From contig CP129470.1 of NCBI GenBank assembly GCA_030583685.1, positions 20,345 through 84,344 of the forward strand: a DNA stretch of 64,000 nucleotides, given 5' to 3'. The notes under the pieces were generated by a model. That model did not search any database. It saw nothing but the letters and a program-made list of their open reading frames with translations, and was not told the origin of the DNA. The DNA is from Candidatus Dojkabacteria bacterium. Its GTDB lineage: Bacteria > Patescibacteriota > Dojkabacteria > GCA-002793355. The stretch's first letter is position 1, and every line of letters starts with the position of its first letter. Positions 16,792-49,072 of this stretch are shown piece by piece. The position numbers and the translations under genes are program-made.

Positions 16792-16843
16792 CCCGCGACT
16801 TCACTTGTATAAGTACACTGTTTTCTAGTATAATTCTGCAAGT

Positions 16844-16926
16844 GCCGGGGTGGTGGAATGGCAGACACGCTACCTTGAGGTGGTAGTGCCCGTAAGGGTG
16901 TGGAGGTTCGACTCCTCTTCCCGGCA
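16844..16926 (+). tRNA. tRNA-Leu (anticodon GAG) with long variable arm
   Basis: Acceptor GCCGGGG/CCCGGCA pairing, anticodon loop TTGAGGT, long extra arm GCCCGTAAGGGTGT, T-loop GGTTCGACTCC. Confidence 0.85.
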
Positions 16927-16942
16927 TATCTCGATTTTCAAT

Positions 16943-17017
16943 CGGGGCGTAGTTCAGTTGGCTAGAACGCACGGTTTGGGACCGTGAGGTCGCGAGTTCG
17001 AGTCCCGCCGCCCCGAT
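16943..17017 (+). tRNA. tRNA-Pro (anticodon TGG)
   Basis: Acceptor CGGGGCG/CGCCCCG, D-arm GTTCAGTTGGCTAGAAC, anticodon stem-loop CACGG-TTTGGGA-CCGTG, T-loop TTCGAGT; 17 nt after tRNA-Leu. Confidence 0.85.
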
Positions 17018-17383
17018 TGAACAGTACGAGTTCTTCCGCAAGGTCACTAAAAGCCTTATACAATGGGCTGATTCCTAAGTTCGTAAGTTTCCCATTTTCA
17101 ATCTTTGGACAGTTCGTAAACATGTCCGCCAGTATCTCTCTACGCTGATCAATGGATTTAGTTGATTATGAGGAAGATGTTGAAGACTGGCAAATCCATT
17201 TAGTAAATTAATTTTCATAACCTTTGAGGGTTAGAAGGTAAAACCCTCAAAATTTGAGCAGTTGAAACTTACTTTCTTTATCTCTAGCCGAAATAAGAAA
17301 GTAAGCAAAGAAAGTTGGCTTTGTTTTTTACATTCTCTTTACAATAGAGTAAAATATTTCTATCTTATTTTGTTAGCACATAC

Positions 17384-17608
17384 TTGATGGATAAGAAAAG
17401 ATCCGATATCGGAAAGGCAATACAAAAAGTGAGGTTAGATAAGGGATTGACTCAAGAGGAATTATCTCGCAAGGCTGATATTCCATATACAACTCTTGCG
17501 AAAATCGAAAGCGGAATGGTTGTAAATCCTAGATTTAAAACCCTTCAAAAAATTGCAACTGCTTTGGAAGTTACAATTGATTATTTAATTAAGTTAGATG
17601 GTAAATAA
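17384..17608 (+). CDS. XRE/Cro-C1-family HTH transcriptional regulator (putative controller of the downstream R-M operon)
   Basis: LTQEELSRKADIPYTTLAKIESG HTH_3 motif; 74 aa; stop overlaps the hsdM start. Confidence 0.75.
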   Translation: MMDKKRSDIGKAIQKVRLDKGLTQEELSRKADIPYTTLAKIESGMVVNPRFKTLQKIATALEVTIDYLIKLDGK

Positions 17609-19358
17609 CATGGCAAAATCAAATCTACATTCAATTATTAGCTTTATTTGGTCTGTAGCAGATGATGTTCTGAGAGATCACTATAAAAAAGGTGAATATC
17701 CAAATGTAATTTTACCAATGACAGTAATAAGAAGAATTGACCTTTCTCTCGATGATACAAAAGCTGATGTCGTAAAGGCATACGAAGACTACAAAGACAA
17801 AATTATTAATCCTCAAGGTCTTCTTGAAAGTGCTTCAAAAAAGAAATACTACAACTACTCGAAATACACTCTTAAAACCCTTTTAAACGAACCAAAAAAC
17901 CTGAAAGAGAATACTCTTTCGTATTTAAACAGCTATTCCGATAATGTAAAAGACATCATCGAAAAGTTTGAGCTTAAGAATATTGTTGAAAAATGCAGTC
18001 GAGATGGAATACTTTTCTCATTAATTGAGAAGTTTGCAGATCCAAAAGTAGCTATTTCCCCTACCGAATTATCAAATCATGAAATGGGACATGTATTTGA
18101 AGATTTAATAAGGCGATTTAACGAAGAAAATAATGAGGAGGCAGGGGAACACTTCACTCCAAGAGAAGTTATTAAACTGATGAATCGAATTGTCTTTGAT
18201 CCTGTTAAAGACAAAATTAAGGATATCGGAACTATTCTTGTATATGATCCTGCATGTGGAACTGGTGGTATGCTTTCAGAATCCAAAGAATATCTGAAGG
18301 ACATTCTTAAATATGATGGTTTTATTCACTTATTTGGTCAAGAAGTAAATGATAAAACATATGCAACTTGTAAAGCAGACCTGCTTATTAAAGGTGAAGA
18401 TCCCGATGGTGTAGCTTTTGGTTCAACATTATCAAATGATGGTTTTCCTGATAAGAAGTTTGATTTTATGCTTACAAATCCTCCATATGGAAAAACTTGG
18501 AAAGACGATCAAAAGAAGCTATTAGTTGGCGATGGGAAGAAGAAACAAATTGTTGATAGTAGGTTTCAAATTGGTATCCCAAGAGTTTCCGATGGACAAC
18601 TATTGTTTGTCGAGCATATGCTTTCCAAAATGAAAACTGATACAGAACTAGGATCAAGAATAGCCTCTGTTCATAATGGCTCAGCTCTCTTTACTGGTGA
18701 TGCAGGACAAGGAGAAAGTGAGATTAGAAAATATTTGTTTGAAAATGATCTAATTGACGCAATTATTGCGCTCCATTCAGATATGTTTTACAACACAGGA
18801 ATACCGACTTATATCTTGTTAATAACTAACAAAAAGCATGAAAAAAGAGTAGGTAAAATTCAACTAATCAATGCTACATCAGAGGAATTTTATACAAACC
18901 TTAAAAAGACTTTAGGCCAAAAAAGAGTTGAAATTACGGATGCACAGATAAATAAAATCTATGAGATTTATACTAAATTTGAAAATTCTGAATTTTCAAA
19001 AATATTTTCTAATAAAGAGTTCGGATATACGCAAATAAAGGTGCACCAACCGAAGAAAGATGAAAAAGGAAATATTATTAGAAAGAAAATGGGAGGTGTC
19101 GAAATTGATAAAAGCTTAGAGGATATTGAAAATATCCCATTGAAAATGGATATTGATACATTCTTTAATGAAGAGGTTAAAAAATATTATCCTGATGCTT
19201 GGTATGAACCTGATGAATCAAAAATTGGATATGAAATAAACTTTAATAAATACTTTTATAAGTTTACTCCGCCTAGATCATCAGATGTAATTTTAAATGA
19301 GTTGAGAATACTTGATAAAGAAACAGACTCATTACTTAAGGAATTACTTAAAGATTAA
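17598..19358 (+). CDS. hsdM: Type I restriction-modification system N6-adenine DNA methyltransferase subunit
   Basis: Motif I (DPACGTGGML), catalytic motif IV NPPYG (MLTNPPYGKTW), N-terminal HsdM_N helical domain. Confidence 0.9.
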   Translation: MVNNMAKSNLHSIISFIWSVADDVLRDHYKKGEYPNVILPMTVIRRIDLSLDDTKADVVKAYEDYKDKIINPQGLLESASKKKYYNYSKYTLKTLLNEPKNLKENTLSYLNSYSDNVKDIIEKFELKNIVEKCSRDGILFSLIEKFADPKVAISPTELSNHEMGHVFEDLIRRFNEENNEEAGEHFTPREVIKLMNRIVFDPVKDKIKDIGTILVYDPACGTGGMLSESKEYLKDILKYDGFIHLFGQEVNDKTYATCKADLLIKGEDPDGVAFGSTLSNDGFPDKKFDFMLTNPPYGKTWKDDQKKLLVGDGKKKQIVDSRFQIGIPRVSDGQLLFVEHMLSKMKTDTELGSRIASVHNGSALFTGDAGQGESEIRKYLFENDLIDAIIALHSDMFYNTGIPTYILLITNKKHEKRVGKIQLINATSEEFYTNLKKTLGQKRVEITDAQINKIYEIYTKFENSEFSKIFSNKEFGYTQIKVHQPKKDEKGNIIRKKMGGVEIDKSLEDIENIPLKMDIDTFFNEEVKKYYPDAWYEPDESKIGYEINFNKYFYKFTPPRSSDVILNELRILDKETDSLLKELLKD

Positions 19359-20698
19359 TGAAAAAGTATAATAATTACAAGCAAACATTCGTGGATTGGA
19401 TTGGAGAGATACCAGAGCAATGGAAAGTAAAACCACTTATGGCTGTATTACAACAACGTAATGAAAAAAATGATCCTGTAAAAACAGAGCAGATTCTTTC
19501 GCTTTCAATCGCAGATGGTGTAACACTATATTCTCATATTGGTAGAGGAGGTAACAAGTCTAAAGGTGATTTGACTGCTTACAAGATAGCTCATGAGGGG
19601 GATATTGTTATGAATAGTATGAATGTTATTGTCGGAGCTGTAGGTCTCTCTAGATATTTTGGAGCAATTAGTCCAGTATATTATGCACTGTTCCCTAAAG
19701 ATGATTCGGTGGAAATTAAATTTTATGAGAATATCTTTAAAAGCAAAGCTTTTCAGAAATTTCTTATGGTATATGGCAAGGGTATACTTATCAAGAAAAG
19801 TGCCTCAGGAAAATTAAATACAATTAGAATGAAGGTCTCTTCAACCGATCTTAGGCGAACACTCCTACCAGTACCTGCGTACATAGAACAAGTAGCAATA
19901 GGACAAGCCCTTGATGAAGCCAACCGCAAGATTGATAAAGTAGTTGAAGGAAAACGTCAGTATATTAACCTCCTTAAAGAATATAAACAGTCAAAAATTA
20001 ATGAATTAGTAACAAAAGGTCTGAACCCAAATGTAAAGATGAAGGATAGTGGGATTGAGTGGTTAGGAGAAATTCCTGAACATTGGGACACCCTGAGACT
20101 CAAAACAATAATTAGTACTTCAAAAAATGGTATTTGGGGTGAAGATGTTAATCAAAATAAACACAATTATCCATGTATTAGAGTTGCAGATTTTGATTAT
20201 ACCCATTACTGTGTAAAAGATGAAATTCTAACATTACGTTCTTATGCTGACAAAGATATTGTGTATCTTATTGAAGAACCGTCTGTATTAATTGAGAAAT
20301 CTGGCGGAGGTGAAAAAATGCCTGTAGGAAGAATTGTTTATTATAACTCTTCAAAACCTTGCATGTGTTCCAATTTTATTTCAAGAATTAAAGTTAAAGA
20401 AGAAAAGGTGTTATTACAATATTTTGTATATTTTATGAGTGTTTTATATTCCAAGAGAGTAATTACAAAATCAATTAAGGCTACTACAGGCATTCAGAAC
20501 ATTGACGAGTATAGTCTTTTTGCCGAAAAAATACTTATACCTCCTGTAAATGAACAGTCTCAAATAGTTAACATAATTAAATCTGTTATTGGTAAATATG
20601 ATCAATTAGTTGAAAAAGCAGAGAAACAGATAGAATTAATTCAACAATATCGCCAATCACTAATATATGAATTAGTAACTGGTAAAAGAAAACCTTAA
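19358..20698 (+). CDS. hsdS: Type I restriction-modification system specificity subunit (two target-recognition domains)
   Basis: Two repeated TRD halves, each followed by a conserved coiled-coil spacer (LIELIQQYRQSLIYELVTGK at the C-terminus; similar central repeat). Start ATGA overlaps the hsdM stop. Confidence 0.8.
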   Translation: MKKYNNYKQTFVDWIGEIPEQWKVKPLMAVLQQRNEKNDPVKTEQILSLSIADGVTLYSHIGRGGNKSKGDLTAYKIAHEGDIVMNSMNVIVGAVGLSRYFGAISPVYYALFPKDDSVEIKFYENIFKSKAFQKFLMVYGKGILIKKSASGKLNTIRMKVSSTDLRRTLLPVPAYIEQVAIGQALDEANRKIDKVVEGKRQYINLLKEYKQSKINELVTKGLNPNVKMKDSGIEWLGEIPEHWDTLRLKTIISTSKNGIWGEDVNQNKHNYPCIRVADFDYTHYCVKDEILTLRSYADKDIVYLIEEPSVLIEKSGGGEKMPVGRIVYYNSSKPCMCSNFISRIKVKEEKVLLQYFVYFMSVLYSKRVITKSIKATTGIQNIDEYSLFAEKILIPPVNEQSQIVNIIKSVIGKYDQLVEKAEKQIELIQQYRQSLIYELVTGKRKP

Positions 20699-20715
20699 AT
20701 TATGAAATAATCAAT

Positions 20716-23697
20716 ATGAACGATCAAAACAATACATTAAATAAAAAAGAATCAGGGTTTGAAGATATTATTTTTGAATTTTTGACTCAATCACAATCTC
20801 CAAAGTATCGTGCAAGAGTAGATTCTGATTATGATAAAGCTAATTGTATTGATTTTGGTCTGCTTATTGAGTTTTTACAACAAACTCAACCTGAAAAGCT
20901 AGAAAAACTAAAGAATATTCACAAAGAACTGTTTGAACGAAATTTTTCCTATCGATTAAACCAACAGGTAAAACTTAAAGGTGTAATTGAAGTCTTAAGA
21001 AAAGGAATTGAAGATATGGGCGTACAATTTACTCTAATGTATCCTCACCCATCTTCCTCAAAGAATCCAAATTCTCAAGAACAATATGATCAAAACATAA
21101 CATCAATAATTAGGCAGGTACATTTTAGCCAACAATCAAATGAGTCTGTAGATTTAGTTCTTTTTGTTAATGGAATACCTGTATTAACTATTGAACTAAA
21201 GAACCCATTATCAGGACAGACTTATCAAGACGCCATATGGCAGTATAGAAATGATCGCTCACCAAAGGAAGAACTCTTTTCATTTACAAGATGTATGGTG
21301 CATTTTGCAATGGATAGTGAGCAGGTCTTTATGTGTACCAAATTAGATGGTGAAAAATCTGTGTTCTTGCCTTTCAATAAAGGAAATAACGAACAAGCAG
21401 GAAACCCTGATAACCCGAATGGTTATAGAACTTCATATATGTGGGAAGAAATATTCCAAAAGGATTCATTAATCAACATTATTGAAAGTTTTGCAAGTAA
21501 AGTGGTTGAGAAAGACGAGGATACAGGGAAAGAGAAAGTTAAACAAATTTTTCCAAGATATCACCAATTGAATTGTGTGAGAAATCTATTAACAGATGCT
21601 AAACAAAATGGTACTGGAAAAAGGTATTTAATTCAGCACTCAGCAGGTTCAGGAAAAAGTAATTCAATTACATGGTTAGCTCATCAATTGGTAGAGCTTC
21701 ATGATTCTACAAACGAGAACACTATTTTTGACAGCGTTATCGTTGTTACTGACAGAAAAGTCCTTGATCAACAGATTAGAAATAACATTAAACAATTTGC
21801 ACATGTAGATGGAGTTGTTGAGGCGATTACAGAAGGAAGTCAACATCTAAGAACTGCGTTAGAATCAGGTAAAAAAGTAATAATTACAACTGTTCAGAAA
21901 TTTCCTTATATTGTAAATGATATTGGGCAACTTCCTTCAAAGAAATTTGCATTGATTATTGATGAGGCTCATTCTTCTCAATCAGGGGAAACTTCAAGAA
22001 ATATTAGCATGACATTGGCTGATAAATCTTCTTTAGGGTATAACGAAGACCAACCTAAGAAAGATTTTGAAGATGAGCTTAATGAAATGGTAGTAAACAA
22101 AAAACTACTTCCAAATGCGAGTTATTTTGCCTTTACAGCAACTCCAAAAAATAAAACATTAGAACTATTTGGTGTTAAACAAACTGATGGCTCTTATAAA
22201 GCCTACCATGTGTATTCTATGCAACAAGCAATTCAAGAGAAATTTATTCTCGATGTTTTGCTTAACTATACGACATATCACACATATTACAGTTTGATTA
22301 AAAAGGTTGAAACAGATCCTGAATACGACAAAAAGGAAGCAAAAAAGATTATCTACAAATTTTTGCAATCTAACCCCGATACAATCGAAAAGAAAGCAAG
22401 AATTATGTTAGATCATTTCAGAAATAATTCTTTATACAAAATTGGAGGAAACGCTAAAGCTATGGTTGTCGCAGGTAGTCGTAAGAACGCAGTTGAATAT
22501 TATTATGCTTTCAATAAGGTATGTGAAGAATTGAATCTTCCTTTTAAGTCAATTGTAGCCTTTACAGGTGAAATAGATGGTTTAACAGAAGATAAGATTA
22601 ACGGATTTAGCATATCTTTGAGATCCGTTAAGAAGAAATTAGAAAATGAAAATACCTATAAATTCTTGATTGTTGCAGAAAAGTTTCAGACAGGATTCGA
22701 TGAACCCCTACTACACTCTATGTATGTAGATAGAATTCTTGCAGGAGTAACCGCAGTTCAAACCCTATCAAGATTGAATCGTGTTATGCCACCTCAAAAA
22801 ACAGATACTTTTGTACTAGATTTTGTTAATACTCACGAAGATATACAAACAGCATTTGAACCTTACTATAAAACAACTGTACTATCTGAAGGAACAGATC
22901 CCAATAAGCTTTTTGACCTCAAAGATGCGATTAAAGGATTCCAAATATTCACAGATGAGGAAGTTACTTCATATGTTATGAAATGTTTAGAAAAAAGATC
23001 CGTAGTTGAACTACACCCCATTATTGATAAAGCAGTTGAGAGATTTACTATTCTTGATGAAGAACATAAGTATGACTTGAAAGCGAAAGTAAAATCATTC
23101 ATTCGACTTTATGCTTATATTTCTCAAATAGCACCTTTTGAAAGTGTAGAACTAGAAAAGCTTTACATTTATCTTTCAGACCTTAATAAAAAACTTGTAA
23201 TAGATGTTAAAAAAGACCCTATTGACGATCTAATTAATGCGATAGACCTCGATTCAATCAGGGTTCAAAAAGAAACAGATGGTTCTATTGGGTTAAAGGG
23301 TGATGAACAGCTTCAACCAAACCCTTCAATAATGAGAGGGGGAAAGTTAAATGAAGAAAAAGACAGATTATCAAGGATTCTAGAGGAAATGAACGAGAGA
23401 TTCGGAGGAATTGATTTTAGCGATGGAGATAAAGTAAGAAAAACCTTTGGTGAGATTGCAGATGATGTTAGAAATGATCCTACATTTATGAAAGCAACGC
23501 TAAATGCCGATAGGCAAAATTCTTGGATAACATTTGAAAAACTCCTAAATGAAAAGTTCCAAAATATGATCAATGTGAACTTTAGTTTGTATAAAAAATA
23601 TTCTGACGATCCTGAGTTTAAAAAGTTTATGGCTGATAGATTGTTTGAGATGGTTTGGGGGCAGTCTAGCTCACAAGGGAGGGAAAGAAATAGTTAA
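20716..23697 (+). CDS. hsdR: Type I restriction enzyme R subunit (SF2 helicase/translocase plus N-terminal PD-(D/E)xK nuclease)
   Basis: Walker A HSAGSGKSNS, DEAH box LIIDEAHSSQ, helicase motifs III-VI (TATP, QTGFDEP, QTLSRLNR); N-terminal nuclease region with D...ELK pattern. Confidence 0.9.
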   Translation: MNDQNNTLNKKESGFEDIIFEFLTQSQSPKYRARVDSDYDKANCIDFGLLIEFLQQTQPEKLEKLKNIHKELFERNFSYRLNQQVKLKGVIEVLRKGIEDMGVQFTLMYPHPSSSKNPNSQEQYDQNITSIIRQVHFSQQSNESVDLVLFVNGIPVLTIELKNPLSGQTYQDAIWQYRNDRSPKEELFSFTRCMVHFAMDSEQVFMCTKLDGEKSVFLPFNKGNNEQAGNPDNPNGYRTSYMWEEIFQKDSLINIIESFASKVVEKDEDTGKEKVKQIFPRYHQLNCVRNLLTDAKQNGTGKRYLIQHSAGSGKSNSITWLAHQLVELHDSTNENTIFDSVIVVTDRKVLDQQIRNNIKQFAHVDGVVEAITEGSQHLRTALESGKKVIITTVQKFPYIVNDIGQLPSKKFALIIDEAHSSQSGETSRNISMTLADKSSLGYNEDQPKKDFEDELNEMVVNKKLLPNASYFAFTATPKNKTLELFGVKQTDGSYKAYHVYSMQQAIQEKFILDVLLNYTTYHTYYSLIKKVETDPEYDKKEAKKIIYKFLQSNPDTIEKKARIMLDHFRNNSLYKIGGNAKAMVVAGSRKNAVEYYYAFNKVCEELNLPFKSIVAFTGEIDGLTEDKINGFSISLRSVKKKLENENTYKFLIVAEKFQTGFDEPLLHSMYVDRILAGVTAVQTLSRLNRVMPPQKTDTFVLDFVNTHEDIQTAFEPYYKTTVLSEGTDPNKLFDLKDAIKGFQIFTDEEVTSYVMKCLEKRSVVELHPIIDKAVERFTILDEEHKYDLKAKVKSFIRLYAYISQIAPFESVELEKLYIYLSDLNKKLVIDVKKDPIDDLINAIDLDSIRVQKETDGSIGLKGDEQLQPNPSIMRGGKLNEEKDRLSRILEEMNERFGGIDFSDGDKVRKTFGEIADDVRNDPTFMKATLNADRQNSWITFEKLLNEKFQNMINVNFSLYKKYSDDPEFKKFMADRLFEMVWGQSSSQGRERNS

Positions 23698-23708
23698 TTA
23701 TTCTTATT

Positions 23709-26459
23709 ATGACAAAATACACAAGAGGTTCGGAATGGAGAAAGTGGGATTTACATATCCATACTCCATTCACAAAACTTAATGATCAATACAAAGTAAA
23801 TCAAGGGGAAGATGTATGGGATAAATACTGTGAGACAATAAAAAAGTCAGATGTAGAAGTCATCGGAATAACTGATTACTTTTCAATTGATAATTATTTA
23901 CTCTTTCTTGACAAATTTAAGAACAAGTACCCAAATAGTAACAAAAGATTTTTCCCTAACATTGAACTGCGATTAGAAGTTAGTGTCAATTCAACAAATG
24001 AAGAAGTAAATATCCATATAATATTCTCAAATAAGGTCAAGGAAAAAAAGATTAAAGATTTCCTAAGTAAACTTGAAACTAATAGAACAAAAAGCGGAGC
24101 CAATATTTTTTGTTCGGATCTTTCTTCGGAAGAGGATTACAAAAAGGCATGTATTGATTATAAAAAACTGAAGCCTACATTAAAAAAAGTATTTGGTAAT
24201 AATGAGTGCTACTTAATCGTTGCACCTGTAAACAATCAAGGATTACGACCAGATTCAAATTCTCCTCGTAAACTAATTACTTCAGACGAAATTGACAAGA
24301 TATGTGATTGCTTTTTTGGTAACAGTTCAAATGTCGACTACTTCTTAGATACTCAAAGATATGAGGCAGATAGTGATGGAAAGAAAGAGTTTTCCAAATC
24401 ATGTCCTGTTGTAACAGGGTCAGACGCACATTCGTTTGAGGATTTAGAGCTTAAGTTAGGCAAAAACTACCTAAAGAAAGATTCACAAGACAAAATATGT
24501 GATTCCTCAGAAATAACATGGATAAAAGCAAATCCTACATTCAATGGGTTAAAACAGATATTATATGAACCAATTGAAAGAGTAAAAATCCAAGAATTGA
24601 GACCCGATGACAAAGAAGACTACCAATTGATTGATAGTGTAAGCTTCATTGATGATAAGTTTACTAATCAATCCATATTACTTAGTAAAAACTTAACTGC
24701 AATTATTGGTGGTAAATCCACTGGTAAATCAATATTGCTTAGAAATATTGCAAAAACGATTGATCCTGATGAAGTCGCAAAGCGTTTGAATGAAGTTTCA
24801 ATGGAGGATTATGATAAACCGATTAATGACTTTAATGTTCTTTGGAATGATTCTCAAAATTTTTCTAAAGGGACAACTTCACAAACTCACAAGAAAATAA
24901 TCTACATTCCTCAATCTTACTTAAATAGATTAATTGATAAAAAAGAAGATAGATCAGCTATTGATGAAATCATTAAGAATGTATTGAATCAACAAGTGGA
25001 AGTTCAACAAGCTTTTGATGGCCTAAAAAAACGAACTAGAGAGATTGAACAATCAATATCTTCAAAAATTGAGCAGTTGTTTTTTACTATTAAAGACTTA
25101 TCAACTATAAAGGAAAAAATAAAAGAGATAGGAGATAAGAAAGGAATTGATACAGAAATTGAAAAACTGAAGATTGAAATCAATGAATTAAAAAAGGTCT
25201 CGAGCTTGTCCAAAACAGATTTGGAAGACTTTGATAAATACACAACTTCTTTAAAATCATTAAATATCAAAGCTTCTCAGATTGAGTATGATATAGATAG
25301 CTTAACGAAAGCTAAGGAAACAGTTCCTTTTGTATTTCCATTACTCGAGAATGTATCAAGCGACATTGCTGATACTTTAAGGGAAACATTTAATAACATA
25401 AAAGTTGAATTAGAACAAAAATATAATCAGGCTTTAGAAACAGAGTTAGGTAAAGCCAATAAGTCACAAGTTGCTACTAAAAAAGAAATTCTTGATATAT
25501 CTTCTAAAATTTTACCAATTCAGAAAAGGATTTCTGAATCGAAGGCTTTAGATGAAAAGATTAGAAAATTAACAGCAGAAGAAGAGAAATTAAAACTCAT
25601 TTCAGAACAAGAAATTAATTTTGAAAAAGTGAGGAAACTATTTGATAACATTATCGAAGAGTTAGTAAATACTCATCAAGATTATTATTCTGAAATCTTT
25701 AAAGCAAAGAATTTAATATTACAACAAAATATTATTAATGGAGAGCTTGAGTTTGATATAAATATTACATTTAAGAATGATAGCTTCCAAAAGCTATTTA
25801 TTGATGAGGTTTGTAATTTAAGAACTTTGACCCAATTTAACGAAGTTGAATTGAACAGTTATCAATTCAAAGATAGTGTTAAATTTAAGGATGAGGTAAA
25901 AAAGATTGTCTTAGGTTTTCTAAAAAAACATATACAATTAAAAAATAATTATACCCAAGCAGATGCAATAAGAAAGCTATTGCAGAATTGGTACATTTTT
26001 GACTTTAAGATAAAACAAAATGGTGATGATTTATCTACAATGTCGCCCGGGAAAAAGTCGTTTGTATTACTAAAACTATTAATCGAACTTGATAATAGCA
26101 AGTGTCCAATCCTATTAGACCAGCCAGAAGATGATCTAGATAATCGGTCAATATATTTTGATTTGGTTAGATTCATTAAAAGCAAGAAAAAAGAACGACA
26201 AATCATCATTGCTACGCATAATCCGAATTTAGTTGTTGGTGCTGATGCTGAGTGCGTTATTGTCGCAAATCAGGAAGGTATAGAAACTAAAAATCGCACA
26301 TATCAGTTTGAATATGTTCAAGGAAGTTTGGAATTCTCACAAAAAATTAAACCAAACCAACCAATACTATATAGTCGAGGTATTCAAGAACATGTTTGTG
26401 ATATTCTCGAAGGTGGACGAGAAGCTTTTGAGAATAGAAAAAATAAATATCATATTTAA
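23709..26459 (+). CDS. Fusion protein: N-terminal PHP-family phosphoesterase domain plus SMC/ABC-type ATPase (Walker A, long coiled-coil insert, Walker B/D-loop/H-loop). Candidate anti-phage effector
   Basis: PHP motifs WDLHIHT (HxH), IGITDY, NIELRLE, NIHIIF in the first roughly 110 aa; Walker A AIIGGKSTGKS about residue 330; roughly 350 aa of heptad-rich K/E/L sequence; C-terminal ILLDQPEDDLD (Walker B) and IIIATHNPNL (H-loop). Confidence 0.6.
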   Translation: MTKYTRGSEWRKWDLHIHTPFTKLNDQYKVNQGEDVWDKYCETIKKSDVEVIGITDYFSIDNYLLFLDKFKNKYPNSNKRFFPNIELRLEVSVNSTNEEVNIHIIFSNKVKEKKIKDFLSKLETNRTKSGANIFCSDLSSEEDYKKACIDYKKLKPTLKKVFGNNECYLIVAPVNNQGLRPDSNSPRKLITSDEIDKICDCFFGNSSNVDYFLDTQRYEADSDGKKEFSKSCPVVTGSDAHSFEDLELKLGKNYLKKDSQDKICDSSEITWIKANPTFNGLKQILYEPIERVKIQELRPDDKEDYQLIDSVSFIDDKFTNQSILLSKNLTAIIGGKSTGKSILLRNIAKTIDPDEVAKRLNEVSMEDYDKPINDFNVLWNDSQNFSKGTTSQTHKKIIYIPQSYLNRLIDKKEDRSAIDEIIKNVLNQQVEVQQAFDGLKKRTREIEQSISSKIEQLFFTIKDLSTIKEKIKEIGDKKGIDTEIEKLKIEINELKKVSSLSKTDLEDFDKYTTSLKSLNIKASQIEYDIDSLTKAKETVPFVFPLLENVSSDIADTLRETFNNIKVELEQKYNQALETELGKANKSQVATKKEILDISSKILPIQKRISESKALDEKIRKLTAEEEKLKLISEQEINFEKVRKLFDNIIEELVNTHQDYYSEIFKAKNLILQQNIINGELEFDINITFKNDSFQKLFIDEVCNLRTLTQFNEVELNSYQFKDSVKFKDEVKKIVLGFLKKHIQLKNNYTQADAIRKLLQNWYIFDFKIKQNGDDLSTMSPGKKSFVLLKLLIELDNSKCPILLDQPEDDLDNRSIYFDLVRFIKSKKKERQIIIATHNPNLVVGADAECVIVANQEGIETKNRTYQFEYVQGSLEFSQKIKPNQPILYSRGIQEHVCDILEGGREAFENRKNKYHI

Positions 26460-26471
26460 AAAGTCAATCTT

Positions 26472-27650
26472 ATGGTTAAATTCATACCAAAATTTAAAGA
26501 TCGTAGTCTATTAGACACAAACTGTAATGAGTTTATTGTTGACGCAGATGTAACAATTAAGAACAAGAATAGCTTTCAAGAGATAGCTACTCAAATCCCT
26601 AATTATGTTATAAACCCAGTTACTAGTCGATTTCCATATAGCTCAACAAAAACTAGTGAAAAATTGCCATATTTTTTTAGCAAAAATGAATTTGCTAAAA
26701 TTCTTTCGAATTCCTCAGAGAGACTTAAAAAGTTAATAATTCCTTGTGTTAAATTTTTACTAGAAACAAATTCCAAGAATGTAATACCCCCATATTTTTA
26801 TGCAGAAGACATTACATCTCAGACCTTTAATGTTAATCTTGAAAATATTGCAAATGTTATAAAGTTTAAGGAAAAAGAAAATGTTCAATTTAGTATCTAT
26901 CCAGTCATAAATGTTTCTTCAAATATTCTTACTAATGATAATTCTATTAGATATGTCGCCTCTATGTATATGTCTGATGAATATTACGAAAATATCTCTG
27001 GTTACTATATATTGATTGATGAGTTTGATGCAAATAAAGCAGATCCTTCAACATTAATTGGGTATTTAAAATTAATCAAAGCACTTTCCAAAAAGGAAGT
27101 ACACTTATTGAATATTAATTCATTCGGATACATTGGACTTTTAGCTGGTGCAACTAGCTTTTCTAGTGGATTAGCTAGTGGTGAAAGTAGCTCTGTAAAT
27201 AATTGGATTAGTGATGATAATCAAAATGCTCCAAGACAAAGACCTCCAAAGTTTATTTATGTACCCGAAATATTCTCATATATTGACGAAATAGAATTAC
27301 AGAAAGCAAATTACACTTGTAATTGCTCACATTGTAATGGGACTCTCCCAAGTACTACTATTTCAAAGAAAAAACATTTTCTTGCATGTAGACAAAGAGA
27401 TATCAAAAATAACTTCTCAGGCGAGTTTGATTCAGATTTATTAGCCTGGGAAAATGTCTTTTCGGAAGCCTTGTCGTATGCTAACAATTTATTAAGTTTG
27501 AAAAAAACAACACGATCATATAGCACATTAGTAACTCCGATTAATAAATGGAATAGTATCTTACCAGTTCTAAAAGACTTAAAAAGTTTAGAAGAAAATG
27601 AAGATCTATTAGCCCAAATTCTAAATGAAATTGATGAAACTAATGATTAG
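26472..27650 (+). CDS. Hypothetical 392-aa protein with a CxCxxC...H putative zinc site; partner of the PHP-ATPase
   Basis: Starts 12 nt after the upstream stop; motif CNCSHCNG...KKKHFLAC near residue 285; no other recognisable motif. Confidence 0.4.
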   Translation: MVKFIPKFKDRSLLDTNCNEFIVDADVTIKNKNSFQEIATQIPNYVINPVTSRFPYSSTKTSEKLPYFFSKNEFAKILSNSSERLKKLIIPCVKFLLETNSKNVIPPYFYAEDITSQTFNVNLENIANVIKFKEKENVQFSIYPVINVSSNILTNDNSIRYVASMYMSDEYYENISGYYILIDEFDANKADPSTLIGYLKLIKALSKKEVHLLNINSFGYIGLLAGATSFSSGLASGESSSVNNWISDDNQNAPRQRPPKFIYVPEIFSYIDEIELQKANYTCNCSHCNGTLPSTTISKKKHFLACRQRDIKNNFSGEFDSDLLAWENVFSEALSYANNLLSLKKTTRSYSTLVTPINKWNSILPVLKDLKSLEENEDLLAQILNEIDETND

Positions 27651-28083
27651 AATTGTCATTGATACAAATGTTGCATTATCGGGACTTCTTAGCTATACAT
27701 CTCCTGAACGCATGATAATTAATTATGCAATGCAAAAAAGAATTTCATTGATAGGTTCAAGAGAAACGTTTTCAGAATTCAAAGAAAAGGTTCTAGAAAA
27801 CAAACGATTTATCAAAGTAGCTAAGGATTTAATGTTTCCACAAAATCAGATCCTATCCCAATACAAGGCGTTAGTTAAGTTTGTTGAAATTGAGCAATCA
27901 TTAAAAGAATTACATTTTTGTGAACAAGATCCCGACGATGACATGTTTTTGCATGTAGCAATTCAATCTGGCACTAATATTCTAATAACAAACGATAATC
28001 ATCTCAGAAAATTAAAGAAAATCAATGAAATAAGAATAATTACACCAACAAAGTTCTTAGAAGTTATTAGAAAGCACTTTTAA
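27625..28083 (+). CDS. PIN-domain protein (predicted RNase/nuclease). Probable true start at the MIRIV Met around 27643, overlapping the upstream stop
   Basis: IRIVIDTNVALSGLL (Asp1), later acidic residues (E..D..ITNDNHL), length about 145 aa, typical of VapC-like PIN. Confidence 0.65.
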   Translation: MKLMKLMIRIVIDTNVALSGLLSYTSPERMIINYAMQKRISLIGSRETFSEFKEKVLENKRFIKVAKDLMFPQNQILSQYKALVKFVEIEQSLKELHFCEQDPDDDMFLHVAIQSGTNILITNDNHLRKLKKINEIRIITPTKFLEVIRKHF

Positions 28084-28734
28084 CATATCATTCCAAAAAT
28101 ACTCACATACATAGTTTTGTTTTGATGAAATGATTTCATCTTTTTGCTTTAATGGCCTGTGAATAAATTGTATTGTTCCATGTTTTAATGTTATGAGACC
28201 AGTATTTGACTTAATTAATTCATTAATAGGAACTAGATGTATTTTATTTGACGGTAAAGCTAAATATACTCTATTTGCAAAGGTTTTATAGCGAGAAGCT
28301 TGAACTAAGCCTCTTTTCCAATCAGAAAGTTTTGATTCAATAGCGATTATATTGTTAGATAGTGGTGCCCAGCCATTAACCTTTATGTAGAAATGTTTGT
28401 CGATTTCCTTTATGAAATGACCTTTAATTAACTGCTTAATTATACGACTTTTCAAATAGCCTTTTGACAATCCAACATAATTAATTATATCTTCGAATGA
28501 GGATGGTTTCTTACGATTTTCTGTTATTAATTCAAGTACCTTAAAATAATTCTCACTTTCTAATTCGTTAACCTGCATGTAATTTTCTCTTTTCCGAATT
28601 CTCTTGTAATTAATTTTTAATCCAACGATATCTGCGACACCATATCCCGAATCTACTTCTGTCTTAGTAATATACCCAGATAATGATAACTTTTCTGCAA
28701 TTGTTTTTGAAAATTCTAATTCTGTCATATCCAT
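28057..28734 (-). CDS. Hypothetical protein, possible wHTH plus PD-(D/E)xK-like nuclease fold; convergent with the PIN gene
   Basis: N-terminal helical segment, then a D-x(n)-E-S-K pattern (VADIVGL...IAIESKLSDWK). Weak, motif-level only. Confidence 0.3.
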   Translation of the reverse strand: MDMTELEFSKTIAEKLSLSGYITKTEVDSGYGVADIVGLKINYKRIRKRENYMQVNELESENYFKVLELITENRKKPSSFEDIINYVGLSKGYLKSRIIKQLIKGHFIKEIDKHFYIKVNGWAPLSNNIIAIESKLSDWKRGLVQASRYKTFANRVYLALPSNKIHLVPINELIKSNTGLITLKHGTIQFIHRPLKQKDEIISSKQNYVCEYFWNDMLKVLSNNF

Positions 28735-29010
28735 TATTATTTAGTATAGTCTTTTTTTAAAAACATGCAAAGTTTAATTTCTTGGTTTTCTCAGTAGAAG
28801 TAATAGCAAATATAGTGGAGAAAACAAAATCCACCCAATACACCCAAAACTTCCAAACCCACTATTTTTGTAGATTCTCTTTCCTTTTCCTCTTTTATAC
28901 ATCATAATAATTACAAGTTTAAATTAACATCGGAGTAATAAGCAAGGAATTTCCAACGATTTTGTAGCTCGGAAACAAACTGCAATACTTTGGAAAAAAG
29001 TTCGTAACGC

Positions 29011-29026
29011 GTCCCGCCGCCCCGAT
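29011..29026. repeat. Right-end att-like direct repeat of the tRNA-Pro 3' end (GTCCCGCCGCCCCGAT)
   Basis: Exact 16-nt match to 17002-17017; the upstream AGTTCG also echoes the tRNA T-arm. Confidence 0.6.
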
Positions 29027-29045: not shown

Positions 29046-29369
29046 ATGTACAAACTAATAACATTTTGTCCCAAAAACGCAGTAGATTCTCTAATACAGG
29101 CTATGGGTGATGCTGGAGCAGGAATAGTCGGTAACTACTCACACTGTGCGTTTGTGACCGAAGGTCAAGGTAACTGGTTTTCAGGTGCAAATACAAACCC
29201 AACAATTGGAAAAGCTGGAACAATGAGTAAAGAACCTGAATGCAGGATAGAAATGCTTTGCAAAAAGGAAAATCTACAATTGGTCATTAAAGCAATTAAT
29301 AAGACACATCCTTACGAAGAACCAGAAATTGACATTATAAAGCTAGAAGATTTGCAAGATATCAAATAG
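29046..29369 (+). CDS. Small CutA/PII-like fold protein (NIF3-insert-domain-like)
   Basis: C-terminal HPYEEPEIDIIKLED resembles the CutA HPYEVPEI motif; 107 aa; glycine-rich GDAGAGIVGNYSHCAF segment. Confidence 0.4.
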   Translation: MYKLITFCPKNAVDSLIQAMGDAGAGIVGNYSHCAFVTEGQGNWFSGANTNPTIGKAGTMSKEPECRIEMLCKKENLQLVIKAINKTHPYEEPEIDIIKLEDLQDIK

Positions 29370-29434: not shown

Positions 29435-30247
29435 ATGGCTATTTTTGTATATGCAGCGGGCGGAGTATCAGAAAGGTTTGGAGGAAAGGTAAAGGGGCTT
29501 ACACCAGTTGGTTCAAACAATGAAACACTTCTTGAAATATCGATGACTCAAGCGATTCAAGCAGGATGCACAGAGTTTATTTTTATCGTTGGAAAAAAAT
29601 CAGCACATGAAATTCAAGCTTTTTTTGGGAATGAATATAAGCAAATCCCCATTCGATATGCAATGCAAACGTTCGACGAAAAGGAACGAGATAAACCATG
29701 GGGTACCACAGATGCTCTTATTGCTGCCAAACCGTTGATTTCATCAAACTTTGTATTTCTTAACGCAGATGATATTTATGGTACTCACGCACTACGTACC
29801 CTTGTACAAAGCTTAAACTCATCACAAAATTGTTTACTTATCGGGTATTTGCTCGAAAACGTCCTTCCAGCAGACCAAAGCACCGCAAACAGAGCTATTG
29901 TTACGGAAGAGCAGGGCCTTGTTACAGACATCCAAGAAAACTTCCAGCTTTCACTGACAAACTATAAAAATCGTGGGTTAGACCGAAACTCAATTTGTGC
30001 ATTAAATTTATTTGGAATCACAAATAAAACACTTTCCCTCTTGGAAAAAGAGTTAGAGGAATTCAAGAAGCTACATCGAGGTAACCGTACTATAGAATGC
30101 TATCTCCCAAATTCGTTACAGAACCTCATATCAAAGAAGTTAATTCACATGACCGTCATAAAGACCTCAGACAAATGGTTTGGGATAACTAGTCCATCAG
30201 ATGTTCCACTACTTCGTAAGCAAATTGCGGAGAGGGAATCAAGCTAA
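29435..30247 (+). CDS. Sugar-phosphate nucleotidyltransferase (NTP_transferase family)
   Basis: N-terminal AAGGVSERFGG...K signature glycine-rich loop of the nucleotidyltransferase Rossmann fold; EFIFIVG. Confidence 0.65.
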   Translation: MAIFVYAAGGVSERFGGKVKGLTPVGSNNETLLEISMTQAIQAGCTEFIFIVGKKSAHEIQAFFGNEYKQIPIRYAMQTFDEKERDKPWGTTDALIAAKPLISSNFVFLNADDIYGTHALRTLVQSLNSSQNCLLIGYLLENVLPADQSTANRAIVTEEQGLVTDIQENFQLSLTNYKNRGLDRNSICALNLFGITNKTLSLLEKELEEFKKLHRGNRTIECYLPNSLQNLISKKLIHMTVIKTSDKWFGITSPSDVPLLRKQIAERESS

Positions 30248-47325: not shown

Positions 47326-47402
47326 GGGCAGCTAGCTCAGCTGGTTAGAGCACTTCATTGACATTGAAGAGGTCACAAGTTCGAATCTTGTGCTGCCCAC
47401 CA
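47326..47402 (+). tRNA. tRNA-Val (anticodon GAC) with encoded CCA
   Basis: Acceptor GGGCAGC/GCTGCCC, D-arm TAGCTCAGCTGGTTAGAGCA, anticodon loop TTGACAT, T-loop GGTTCGAATCC, 3' ACCA. Confidence 0.85.
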
Positions 47403-47431: not shown

Positions 47432-47460
47432 TTGTCCCTCTCTTGACATTGGTGTATAAT
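47432..47460 (+). promoter_or_regulatory. Predicted sigma70-type promoter of surface-protein gene 1 (-35 TTGTCC, 17-nt spacer, -10 TATAAT within the GGTGTATAATTG motif)
   Basis: Hexamers read directly from the sequence; the same GGTGTATAATTG motif recurs upstream of the paralog at 49031-49042. Confidence 0.35.
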
Positions 47461-47492
47461 TGTTAACCTTAATTTATTTATATAAGGTCACT

Positions 47493-48950: not shown

Positions 48951-49012
48951 AGAAAACGAGGGCGGGTTATCTAACCAATAAGAGATCATTGCGTTGTACA
49001 AATTTAACTGTC

Positions 49013-49039
49013 TTGACAAATCATATTTGGGTGTATAAT
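49013..49039 (+). promoter_or_regulatory. Predicted sigma70-type promoter of surface-protein gene 2 (-35 TTGACA, 15-nt spacer, -10 TATAAT inside GGTGTATAATTG)
   Basis: Hexamers read from the sequence; the -10 context is identical to the paralog promoter; ATG 34 nt downstream. Confidence 0.4.
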
Positions 49040-49072
49040 TGAGTAACACAAGCTTAATTATATAGGCCAGTT

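What the first reader, a model, noticed from the sequence alone, without database searches (positions are those of the whole stretch)
17002..29026. About 12-kb AT-rich defence island inserted at tRNA-Pro, bounded by a 16-bp direct repeat of the tRNA 3' end, with no detectable integrase
The last 16 nt of tRNA-Pro (GTCCCGCCGCCCCGAT, 17002-17017) recur exactly at 29011-29026. The 6 nt before the right copy (AGTTCG) also echo the tRNA T-arm. Everything between the copies is visibly more AT-rich than the flanks. That interval holds the XRE regulator, hsdMSR, the PHP-ATPase, the 392-aa unknown, PIN and a PD-(D/E)xK-like gene, and all of it is classic accessory cargo. Outside the repeats the gene content returns to housekeeping (mutL and tRNAs on the left, CutA-like and nucleotidyltransferase on the right). 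The lack of a tyrosine or serine recombinase suggests a decayed or satellite island. The 365-bp segment after the tRNA (17020-17383) contains two hairpins (TTGAGGGTT/AACCCTCAA at about 17226-17250; CTTACTTTCTT/AAGAAAGTAAG at about 17267-17305) that could be the residue of the recombination machinery.
Basis: partly seen in the sequence, partly recalled or inferred. Interest (0 to 1): 0.75.

Follow-up and report, generated by a model that had tools for sequence, protein, structure and literature searches.

The report
Integrase-less defence island at tRNA-Pro
A 12-kb block of anti-phage genes sits exactly at the end of a proline tRNA gene in an uncultured Dojkabacteria (CPR) bacterium, is missing cleanly from a 99%-identical sister strain, and carries no recombinase of its own, so it is a real but fairly ordinary non-autonomous genomic island.

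Summary
The 16-mer GTCCCGCCGCCCCGAT occurs only at 17002-17017 (the 3' end of tRNA-Pro(TGG)) and at 29011-29026. GC falls from 0.41 to 0.31 between the two copies. Other strains carry a 179-nt mini-insert, the island plus the mini-insert, or a different island at the same junction.

No ORF in the island, in the rest of the window, or in related contigs carrying the same end sequences is a recombinase.

The island is a mosaic:
- a 135-nt left-end module (17018-17152)
- an XRE-hsdMSR cassette that is 88-95% identical to one found beside conjugation genes elsewhere
- a TrlF PHP-ATPase
- a rare three-gene cassette (TGT-like fold, PIN, PD-(D/E)xK with a winged helix)
- a 276-nt right-end module

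The 9-mer AGTTCGTAA occurs three times in 64 kb, always beside an island end.

Best reading: a CIME-like element that was integrated site-specifically and now depends on a recombinase supplied in trans, or is immobile. It is a new member of a known kind.

The parts
16943..17016 (+). tRNA-Pro(TGG), the integration target. It is intact after insertion.
   Evidence: ARAGORN places it at 16942-17017. Rfam tRNA scores 64.5 bits at 16943-17016. The same tRNA is present in empty-site strain L141.
17002..17017 (+). Left copy of the 16-nt direct repeat (attL core). It is the last 15 nt of the tRNA plus 1 nt.
   Evidence: Exact match, no matches in shuffles. It extends to 19 nt with 1 mismatch.
17018..17152 (+). 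Left-end module: a conserved non-coding block with two AGTTCGTAA copies (17078-17086 and 17111-17119, 33 nt apart). Proposed attP-derived arm.
   Evidence: About 90-92% nt identity to JGI contigs L105-L113, which share nothing else with the window. Homology starts at CCCCGAT (17011) and stops at 17152. Nucleotide identity (90%) exceeds the amino-acid identity (81%) of the only ORF across it. GC is 0.405 against 0.30 for the next 213 nt. No Rfam hit.
17151..17383 (+). Upstream region of the R-M cassette. It holds the truncated 3' end of a 66-aa ORF, hairpin 1 (17226-17250), hairpin 2 (17267-17305) and a promoter-like site (17327-17355).
   Evidence: It aligns almost base for base with L153, L157 and L160, upstream of an identical XRE gene. 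Hairpin 2 is deleted in L161. Promoter-like TTTACA-17-TAAAAT.
17387..17608 (+). XRE/HTH_3 regulator. It overlaps the hsdM start and is probably a controller-type regulator of the R-M operon.
   Evidence: Pfam HTH_3, 4.5e-16. PADLOC control-protein and HTH hits. The 73-aa product is 100% identical in 53 blocks of the assembly collection.
17598..19358 (+). Type I R-M methyltransferase HsdM.
   Evidence: Pfam N6_Mtase 2.3e-58 and HsdM_N. PADLOC MTase_I 1.6e-229.
19358..20698 (+). Type I R-M specificity subunit HsdS. Its target-recognition domains differ from those in related cassettes.
   Evidence: Pfam Methylase_S. PADLOC Specificity_I 1.7e-98. Only the central 19951-20086 segment aligns to L153-L161.
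20716..23697 (+). Type I R-M restriction subunit HsdR.
   Evidence: Pfam HSDR_N, SWI2_SNF2, ResIII and T1R_D3-like. 94.9% nt identity to L153-L160, ending at 23698.
23709..26459 (+). TrlF-family PHP/ABC-type ATPase, distantly related to the anti-phage protein Ppl.
   Evidence: NCBIfam NF045780 TrlF scores 544.9 bits against a cut-off of 350. Ppl scores 68.7 bits against a cut-off of 1000. PADLOC Ppl 5.2e-15. N-terminal WDLHIHT motif.
26472..27650 (+). 392-aa protein with a TGT/DpdA-like fold and a CxCxxC...H zinc motif. First gene of a three-gene cassette.
27625..28083 (+). PIN_3-domain nuclease. It overlaps both neighbouring genes.
   Evidence: Pfam PIN_3 5.1e-15. TIGR00305 60 bits.
28057..28734 (-). 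225-aa PD-(D/E)xK nuclease with an inserted winged helix-turn-helix.
   Evidence: Invariant D35 ... E133-x-K135 in 12 homologues. AF2 pLDDT 92. Foldseek 3dnx E 4.7e-6, plus wHTH regulators.
28735..29010 (+). Right-end non-coding module with AGTTCGTAA at 28999-29007, arranged as GTTCGTA-N11-CGCCCCGAT. Proposed attP-derived arm.
   Evidence: No ORF or family hit. 73% similar over 92 nt to the right end of the alternative island in L020, with the same GTTCGTA-N11-CGCCCCGAT spacing. That L020 end is 92% identical over 238 nt to L106/L108, beside different cargo.
29011..29026 (+). Right copy of the 16-nt direct repeat (attR core).
   Evidence: Exact match. Identity of alternative alleles with the window begins inside it, at CGCCCCGAT in L020/L019 and at CCGAT in L147/L140/L143.
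29046..29369 (+). CutA-like gene, the host flank on the right (context only).
   Evidence: Pfam CutA1 7.4e-05. It directly follows tRNA-Pro in L141.

Best explanation
Window 17018-29026 is a horizontally acquired, mosaic defence island.

Shown:
- It is an insertion polymorphism sitting exactly at the 3' end of tRNA-Pro(TGG).
- It is flanked by a 16-nt duplication of the tRNA end.
- It has conserved non-coding ends.
- It has no recombinase gene.

Inferred:
- It entered by site-specific recombination between an element-borne attP (right-end module, GTCCCGCCGCCCCGAT, left-end module) and the tRNA end. This restored the tRNA at attL and left the second core copy at attR.
- The enzyme was most likely a tyrosine integrase, because that class typically targets tRNA 3' ends.
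- Strand exchange fell within about the last 5-9 nt (CGCCCCGAT), because alternative alleles at the same junction share only those bases.
- The AGTTCGTAA copies in both arms are candidate recombinase or accessory-protein binding sites.

Today the element is non-autonomous. It is either a deletion derivative of a larger integrative or conjugative element (CIME-like), or a cassette moved by a recombinase encoded elsewhere.

Its cargo protects the cell from foreign DNA. It comprises an XRE-controlled Type I R-M system, a TrlF PHP-ATPase, and a cassette of a TGT-like protein, a PIN nuclease and a PD-(D/E)xK nuclease.
For: Repeat and tRNA.

Empty site: L141 has 99.06% identity over 10,362 nt of the right flank and joins 17020 to 29008.

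At least five allelic states occur at the same junction in strains of about 99% identity:
- empty (L141)
- a 179-nt mini-insert with an 18-nt repeat (L139, L142, L144-L146)
- this island (window, L021 plus L102/L138)
- the island's right end plus the mini-insert (L147)
- a different island (L020)

Several independent assemblies also break exactly at the core (L019, L140, L143, L152).

Composition steps at both cores.

Conserved ends beside unrelated cargo:
- The left module is 90-92% identical in L105-L113.
- The right module of L020 is 92% identical over 238 nt to L106/L108, next to three different genes.

AGTTCGTAA occurs 3 times in 64 kb. All three are on the + strand and within about 100 nt of an island end. 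Both left copies are conserved in L105-L113, and a GTTCGTA/TTCGTA core sits at nearly the same distance from CCGAT in the other right ends.

No recombinase was found in island ORFs, in the rest of the window (and the gene tables), or in the contigs carrying the end modules.

Mosaic origin: 17151-19348 (88%) and 20601-23698 (95%) match an XRE-hsdMSR cassette that lies downstream of relaxase and TraG/VirB4-like genes in L153-L161. The homology begins exactly where the left module ends and truncates a 66-aa ORF.

The CIME concept is taken from PMC5704250.
Against: - No integrase has been identified anywhere, so the enzyme class is an inference from the target type.
- Only 64 kb of an 888,748-bp contig could be inspected.
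- No circular or attP junction was observed.
- The conjugation-gene contigs L153-L161 show no left or right module within the 20 kb that could be read, so the 'decayed ICE' origin of the whole island is not demonstrated.
- The presence/absence polymorphism could be spread among strains by homologous recombination in the 99%-identical flanks, without any site-specific activity today.
- The AGTTCGTAA count alone is weak evidence (4 of 100 shuffles reach 3 copies). Its significance rests on position and conservation.
- In L105-L113 the left module is not next to a tRNA. It is separated from a right-type end by 53 nt and a second CCCCGAT, which the simple attP model does not explain.
Confidence: 0.72

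Rival explanations
1. The island belongs to a family of intrinsically integrase-less cassettes. Conserved ends of about 140 and 240 nt frame exchangeable defence cargo. A recombinase encoded elsewhere actively moves them in trans, either from the chromosome or from a helper conjugative element. This would be analogous to CIMEs/IMEs or, more loosely, to integron cassettes.
For: The same end modules occur with at least five different neighbouring cargo genes, in two host backgrounds, and none of the seven observed end contexts has an adjacent recombinase. The end modules stay 92-96% identical while the adjacent sequence is unrelated. There are many alleles at one site within a population of about 99% identity. 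The R-M cassette is shared with conjugation-gene contigs.
Against: No candidate recombinase and no excised form were seen. The contigs with end modules are short (1-6.7 kb), so a distal integrase cannot be excluded. High identity of the ends may simply reflect recent common ancestry.
Confidence: 0.25
2. The island is a dead remnant. It integrated once through an integrase it later lost, and it is now gained and lost among strains only by homologous recombination across the conserved MutL/tRNA and CutA flanks.
For: No recombinase in 64 kb. A truncated ORF sits at the 17151 junction, and the module structure is mosaic, which indicates deletions and illegitimate joins. Flanks are 99% identical between strains.
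Against: Precise absence that leaves exactly one core copy is what site-specific excision or integration would give. Several different elements and a tandem arrangement use the same core. The ends are conserved across different cargo.
Confidence: 0.4
3. The repeat and the AT-rich block are an assembly or binning artefact: foreign low-GC DNA joined to a Dojkabacteria contig at a repeated 16-mer.
For: Logan assemblies break at 17293/17294 and at the cores.
Against: Both junctions are reproduced in independent assemblies. L021 covers MutL, the tRNA and 277 nt of the island. L102/L138 cover the island from 17293 through CutA and 10 kb beyond, at 100% identity. L103 and L104 cover the right junction in other runs. 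The 17293 point is bridged in L153-L160.
Confidence: 0.02
4. The island is a phage satellite or a degraded prophage.
For: tRNA integration and an XRE repressor-like gene. A related cassette in L148 lies near a large serine recombinase, a ParB-methyltransferase and a terminase fragment.
Against: The island has no capsid, terminase, primase or replication genes and no integrase. PHROGs hits are only to the regulator and PIN. Pattern and protein scans of IMG/VR gave only chance-level matches or none.
Confidence: 0.05

Closest known systems
CIMEs (cis-mobilizable elements) and decayed ICE/IME remnants at tRNA genes, as described for streptococci (PMC5704250)
   Same: The island is flanked by attL and attR derived from the 3' end of a tRNA gene. 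It has lost, or never had, integration and transfer genes. It sits at a site where other elements accrete in tandem (L147). Part of its cargo is shared with contigs carrying relaxase and coupling-protein genes.
   Different: Derivation from a specific ICE is not shown. No helper ICE or integrase is identified. The host is a CPR bacterium (Dojkabacteria). The ends carry a conserved 135-nt and a roughly 240-276-nt module with an AGTTCGTAA motif that has not been described for CIMEs.
Classical tRNA-integrated genomic islands and defence islands with P4-like or other tyrosine integrases
   Same: Insertion at a tRNA 3' end, a direct repeat of the tRNA end, deviant GC, accessory defence cargo (Type I R-M, PIN, ATPase), and strain-variable presence.
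   Different: The defining integrase gene next to one att site is absent.
Mobile R-M units reported by Furuta, Abe and Kobayashi 2010 (PMC2853133)
   Same: An R-M gene complex found as an insertion relative to an empty-site genome, bounded by direct repeats, with allelic alternatives at the same locus. That paper also reports an R-M plus integrase unit in a tRNA gene.
   Different: Here the repeat is a 16-nt tRNA-derived core rather than a long target duplication. The unit carries further defence genes and has no integrase.
Ppl / TrlF PHP-ATPase proteins (the TrlF family is also annotated on Lactococcus and Staphylococcus plasmids, for example pNP40)
   Same: The 916-aa protein passes the NCBIfam TrlF cut-off. 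It has the N-terminal PHP-type HxH motif and a split ABC/SMC-like ATPase.
   Different: It scores far below the Ppl cut-off. On pNP40 TrlF follows a DUF2130 gene, whereas here it follows hsdR and has no DUF2130 partner. No experimental function for TrlF was found in the paper library.

Membership tests
tRNA-integrated genomic island (integrase type) | Insertion at the 3' end of a tRNA gene, with the tRNA left intact | tested here: met
   tRNA-Pro scores 64.5 bits and is full length. The island starts at 17018.
tRNA-integrated genomic island (integrase type) | Direct repeat of the tRNA 3' end at the distal boundary | tested here: met
   16 nt exact, 19 nt with 1 mismatch, no matches in shuffles.
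tRNA-integrated genomic island (integrase type) | Empty site in close relatives | tested here: met
   L141 has tRNA-Pro directly followed by the CutA-like gene, with flanks 99% identical.
tRNA-integrated genomic island (integrase type) | Composition different from the host | tested here: met
   GC 0.310 against 0.413 +/- 0.015. Tetranucleotide distance 0.43 against 0.19.
tRNA-integrated genomic island (integrase type) | Integrase (tyrosine or serine recombinase) gene inside the element | tested here: not met
   No recombinase domain in 8 ORFs with four HMM libraries. The two unknowns fold as TGT-like and PD-(D/E)xK. Intergenic ORFs give nothing.
CIME (cis-mobilizable element) | Retains attL and attR | tested here: met
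   Both core copies are present, with conserved arms on each side.
CIME (cis-mobilizable element) | Lacks integration and transfer genes | tested here: met
CIME (cis-mobilizable element) | Derived from an ICE or IME by deletion | tested here: inconclusive
   The R-M cassette is 88-95% identical to one beside relaxase and TraG-like genes, and a truncated ORF lies at the 17151 join. However, no end module or integrase was seen in the 20 kb of those contigs that could be read.
CIME (cis-mobilizable element) | Excised or mobilised by a co-resident element's integrase | not testable with these tools
   This needs read-level junction searches or experiments.
Type I restriction-modification system | hsdM, hsdS and hsdR genes together | tested here: met
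   Pfam and PADLOC hits for all three, adjacent and co-oriented.
TrlF family AAA-like ATPase (NCBIfam NF045780) | Full-length score above the curated cut-off | tested here: met
   544.9 bits against 350, covering 6-915 of 916 aa.
Ppl anti-phage protein (NF042955) | Score above the curated cut-off | tested here: not met
   68.7 bits against 1000. It is related but not a member.
Phage satellite / prophage | Integrase plus replication, packaging or structural genes; relatives among viral contigs | tested here: not met
   No such domains. IMG/VR scans gave only chance-level matches or none.
Integron cassette array | IntI integrase with attI, and attC sites bounding cassettes | tested here: not met
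   No IntI or other tyrosine recombinase in the window. The end modules are 135-276 nt and tRNA-linked. No dedicated attC model was run.
TGT/DpdA transglycosylase superfamily (392-aa protein) | TIM-barrel TGT fold with a CxCxxC...H zinc site; sequence-family membership (Pfam TGT) | tested here: inconclusive

The most novel reading that the evidence does not exclude
The tRNA-Pro site of this Dojkabacteria population is a cassette-exchange hotspot. It is served by a family of integrase-less elements whose conserved ends frame interchangeable defence cargo. Those ends are a 135-nt left arm with two AGTTCGTAA sites, and a right arm of about 240-276 nt with the motif a fixed distance from a CCGAT crossover. 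The elements would be moved by a recombinase, not yet identified, encoded in trans. That would be a CPR analogue of CIME/IME or integron-like cassette traffic. The island would also carry a previously undescribed three-gene defence module: a TGT/DpdA-like protein, a PIN nuclease and a PD-(D/E)xK-wHTH nuclease.
Probability: 0.25. Interest if true: 0.65.

Novelty: new member of a known kind. Interest (0 to 1): 0.4.

Why it matters
CPR bacteria have tiny genomes, and little is known about how they exchange DNA. This locus gives a clean case resolved at population level. One tRNA-Pro site has an empty allele, a mini-insert, two different islands and a tandem arrangement, all with exact junctions, so integration and loss can be followed in public read sets.

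The island also shows defence cargo being shuffled as modules. A Type I R-M cassette is shared with conjugation-gene contigs. A rare cassette (TGT-like, PIN, PD-(D/E)xK) recurs next to other R-M systems and next to conjugation genes.

If the conserved ends prove to be substrates of a trans-acting recombinase, they would define a mobilisation system for CPR bacteria and a candidate site-specific integration tool. If not, the locus is a textbook decayed island.

Tried and rejected
1. Genome-contig scan with MutL. The best relative is 56% identical (Candidatus Dojkabacteria) and its contig ends just after mutL. This identified the clade but gave no synteny.
2. Metagenome-contig scan with the CutA-like protein. 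All 80 loci are at most 52% identical, and none has tRNA-Pro next to the gene. A dead end for the empty site.
3. Exact look-up of the 107-aa CutA call found only short contigs. The 88-aa call, as gene callers made it, found the empty site.
4. Integrase-remnant idea for the minus-strand ORF at 17018-17170. Rejected: the only homologue among 5.8 billion proteins is a 68-aa ORF over the same DNA block, nucleotide identity exceeds amino-acid identity, and there is no PHROG hit.
5. IMG/VR scans with left- and right-module patterns. The numbers of hits were as expected by chance, and no homology extended beyond the pattern.
6. Rfam at permissive thresholds on the island, the mini-insert and the end-module contigs. 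Only the tRNAs were found. RNA folding of 17011-17383 is unremarkable (z = -1.7).
7. PLSDB searches found only generic Type I R-M and TrlF similarity.
8. TrlF versus the variable ATPases that follow hsdR in L153-L155: unrelated.
9. A literature search for 'TrlF' returned only spectroscopy papers. I had recalled that pNP40's TrlF/DUF2130 pair was the 'Aristaios' system; that was wrong, because Aristaios is a DUF2971 protein.
10. Exact look-up of the 74-aa TTG-start XRE found nothing. The 73-aa ATG-start version found 53 blocks.

Full report
**1. The observation**

ARAGORN finds tRNA-Leu(gag) at 16843-16927 and tRNA-Pro(tgg) at 16942-17017. Rfam places the tRNA-Pro at 16943-17016 with 64.5 bits.

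GTCCCGCCGCCCCGAT matches the window only at 17002-17017 and 29011-29026, even with two mismatches allowed, and never in 100 shuffles. The repeat extends to 19 nt with one mismatch. Across 163 fetched loci it occurs only at tRNA-Pro ends and att copies of the same species.

Composition changes between the two copies:
- GC is 0.310 (max 0.329) in 3-kb windows, against 0.413 +/- 0.015 outside.
- Tetranucleotide distance to background is 0.43 inside and 0.19 outside.
- GC3 is 0.21-0.27 inside and 0.25-0.39 outside.

This is the only such block in the 64 kb.

**2. Gene content**

The interval holds these genes:
- an HTH_3/XRE regulator that overlaps hsdM
- hsdM, hsdS and hsdR
- a 916-aa protein that passes the NCBIfam TrlF cut-off (545 against 350 bits) and is only distantly related to Ppl
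- a 392-aa ORF with no family hit
- a PIN_3 protein
- a convergent 225-aa ORF with no family hit

The flanks are MutL on the left, and a CutA-like gene and an NTP-transferase on the right.

MutL is 56% identical to a Candidatus Dojkabacteria MAG. The island proteins carry NCBI names from 'Candidatus Dojkabacteria bacterium', tags QY312_00275 and QY312_00285, on an 888,748-bp contig.

**3. Is it an insertion?**

Distant relatives were uninformative. Exact-protein look-ups in public assemblies gave the answer.

- L141 (SRR32675152) reads ...GAGTCCCGCCGCCCCGAT|GTGATTTAGTAACTTCAG... straight into the CutA-like gene.
- L141 is 99.06% identical to the window over 10,362 nt of right flank and joins window 17020 to 29008. 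This is the empty site.
- L139, L142 and L144-L146 have tRNA-Pro, a 179-nt insert, a second GAGTCCCGCCGCCCCGAT, and then CutA.
- L147 has an island right end (TTCGTAACGCGTCCTGTCGCTCCGAT), followed by that mini-insert and then the core.
- L020 has an identical CutA gene but a different upstream sequence. Its identity with the window starts at CGCCCCGAT.
- L021, L102/L138, L103 and L104 reproduce the window's two junctions in independent assemblies.
- Several assemblies break exactly at the core, as expected where a population is polymorphic.

The island is therefore a genuine strain-variable insertion, and the site is a hotspot.

**4. Recombinase**

None of the eight ORFs has a recombinase domain in Pfam, PHROGs, NCBIfam or PADLOC.

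The 225-aa protein has invariant D35...E133-x-K135. Its confident model (pLDDT 92) matches 3dnx and winged-helix regulators. It is a PD-(D/E)xK nuclease with an inserted wHTH.

Neither protein is a recombinase.

The rest of the window has no integrase either (and the gene tables).

**5. The ends**

*Left end.* Window 17011-17152 is 90-92% identical to nine JGI contigs (L105-L113, GC 0.31-0.35) that share nothing else with the window and have no tRNA. The only ORF across the block is 81% identical at the protein level against 90% at the DNA level, and it has no full-length homologue. I read the block as non-coding.

*The 9-mer.* AGTTCGTAA occurs three times in 64 kb: at 17078, at 17111 and at 28999. 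The two left copies are conserved in L105-L113.

*Right end.* The arrangement is GTTCGTA-N11-CGCCCCGAT in both the window and L020. L020's right end is 92% identical over 238 nt to L106/L108, where it abuts different cargo.

Across all right junctions only CCGAT is invariant. This places the likely crossover in the last few bases of the core (inference).

None of the contigs with these modules has a recombinase near them, apart from unrelated IS1595 copies.

**6. The hairpins**

From 17151 onward the window matches contigs L153-L161, at 88% through hsdM and 95% through hsdR. These contigs carry an XRE protein 100% identical to the window's, downstream of relaxase, TraG/VirB4-like and M23 peptidase genes.

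The homology starts exactly where the left module ends and includes only the last codons of a 66-aa ORF. Both hairpins lie in this shared region, and hairpin 2 is deleted in L161.

A promoter-like site at 17327-17355 follows hairpin 2.

The hairpins therefore belong to the R-M operon's upstream region and are not recombination residue.

**7. Mosaic cargo**

- The hsdS recognition domains differ from those in L153-L161.
- After hsdR, the related contigs carry unrelated ATPases.
- L162 continues into a TrlF gene as the window does.
- The cassette of the 392-aa, PIN_3 and 225-aa genes recurs after another Type I system in L148. It also recurs beside VirD4/relaxase genes in L149.
- The cassette is rare: 5 and 12 clusters at 90% identity for the 392-aa and 225-aa proteins, and 158 representatives for the 392-aa family in a full HMMER search.

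**8. Interpretation**

The anatomy is that of an element integrated by site-specific recombination at a tRNA 3' end. It now lacks its own recombinase. It was assembled from modules, and one of them came from a conjugative-element-like context. This fits the definition of a CIME in PMC5704250, although derivation from an ICE is not proven.

Whether it still moves cannot be decided with these tools. It could move with a recombinase supplied in trans, or it could be exchanged only by homologous recombination of the flanks.

Known parallels include R-M units found as insertions with empty-site alleles (PMC2853133).

**9. Verdict**

The observation and the core interpretation are correct, and the hairpin sub-claim is not. 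The feature is a new member of a known kind. It is of moderate interest because of the CPR host, the multi-allelic hotspot, the conserved end modules and the uncharacterised three-gene cassette.

Noticed in passing
window 26472-28734: A conserved three-gene cassette: a 392-aa protein with a TGT/DpdA/Cap10-like fold and a CxCxxC...H zinc motif, a PIN_3 nuclease, and a convergent PD-(D/E)xK nuclease with an inserted winged helix. It recurs after another Type I R-M system (L148) and beside conjugation genes (L149/L150). It has no Pfam, PADLOC or PHROG family, and some distant relatives of the 392-aa protein are fused to a Ser/Thr kinase. It is a candidate undescribed defence module.
   Followed up: partly
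L139:9746-9924 (also L142, L144-L146, L140, L143, L147): A 179-nt mini-insert lies between tRNA-Pro and CutA in several strains. It is bounded by GAGTCCCGCCGCCCCGAT, and the repeat reaches 30 nt with one mismatch if GTGATTT(G/A)GTA is included. It contains an 11-bp hairpin and a T-loop-like GAGTTCGAAACTC. It has no Rfam hit and no similarity to the left or right modules. Its origin is unexplained.
   Followed up: partly
L105:2827-3050, L106:374-600, L108: In JGI digester contigs, a right-type end (GTTCGTA...CACCCCGAT or ATTCGTA...CTCCGAT) is followed by 53 nt, a second CCCCGAT and then the left module. The sequence upstream of the first CCGAT varies between contigs. This could be tandem elements or an attP-like region, and it is unresolved.
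   Followed up: partly
L020:2-244: The alternative island at the same CutA junction ends with a gene whose C-terminus carries a SEC-C-type motif (CICGSNRKGKKCH). A SEC-C-motif protein ('Rugutis') is reported as an antiphage system on lactococcal plasmids (PMC11381338). Only 80 residues are on the contig, and Pfam gave no hit.
   Followed up: partly
window 17293-17294 (hairpin 2); L021 end, L158 and L162 starts: Two independent Logan assemblies break at the same point inside the CTTACTTTCTT/AAGAAAGTAAG inverted repeat. This is probably an assembler effect at the hairpin, but microheterogeneity there was not excluded.
   Followed up: no
window 17387-17608; L153-L162: The 73-aa XRE protein is 100% identical in 53 blocks of the assembly collection, while the adjacent hsdM is only 88% identical at the DNA level and the hsdS recognition domains are swapped. 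The regulator is unusually conserved relative to its operon.
   Followed up: partly
L163 (L. lactis pNP40, NC_010901.1 11074-14944): On the phage-resistance plasmid pNP40, a TrlF-family ATPase directly follows a DUF2130 gene. In L153-L160 a DUF2130 gene follows the variable ATPase downstream of hsdR. The window's TrlF has no DUF2130 partner.
   Followed up: no
window 29435-30247 vs L139:10560-11144: The gene after CutA is called as a 270-aa NTP-transferase in the window and in L141, but as 194 aa in the mini-insert strains. The right flank there is only 95.6% identical, against 99% elsewhere, which suggests a second variable or recombined segment next to the hotspot.
   Followed up: no
window 42008-43495 and 47460-50000: A RuBisCO large-subunit homologue (Pfam 2e-94) is present. 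The stretch after tRNA-Val (47326-47402) is the most GC-rich in the window (0.46) and starts with a 496-aa ORF without any Pfam hit.
   Followed up: no
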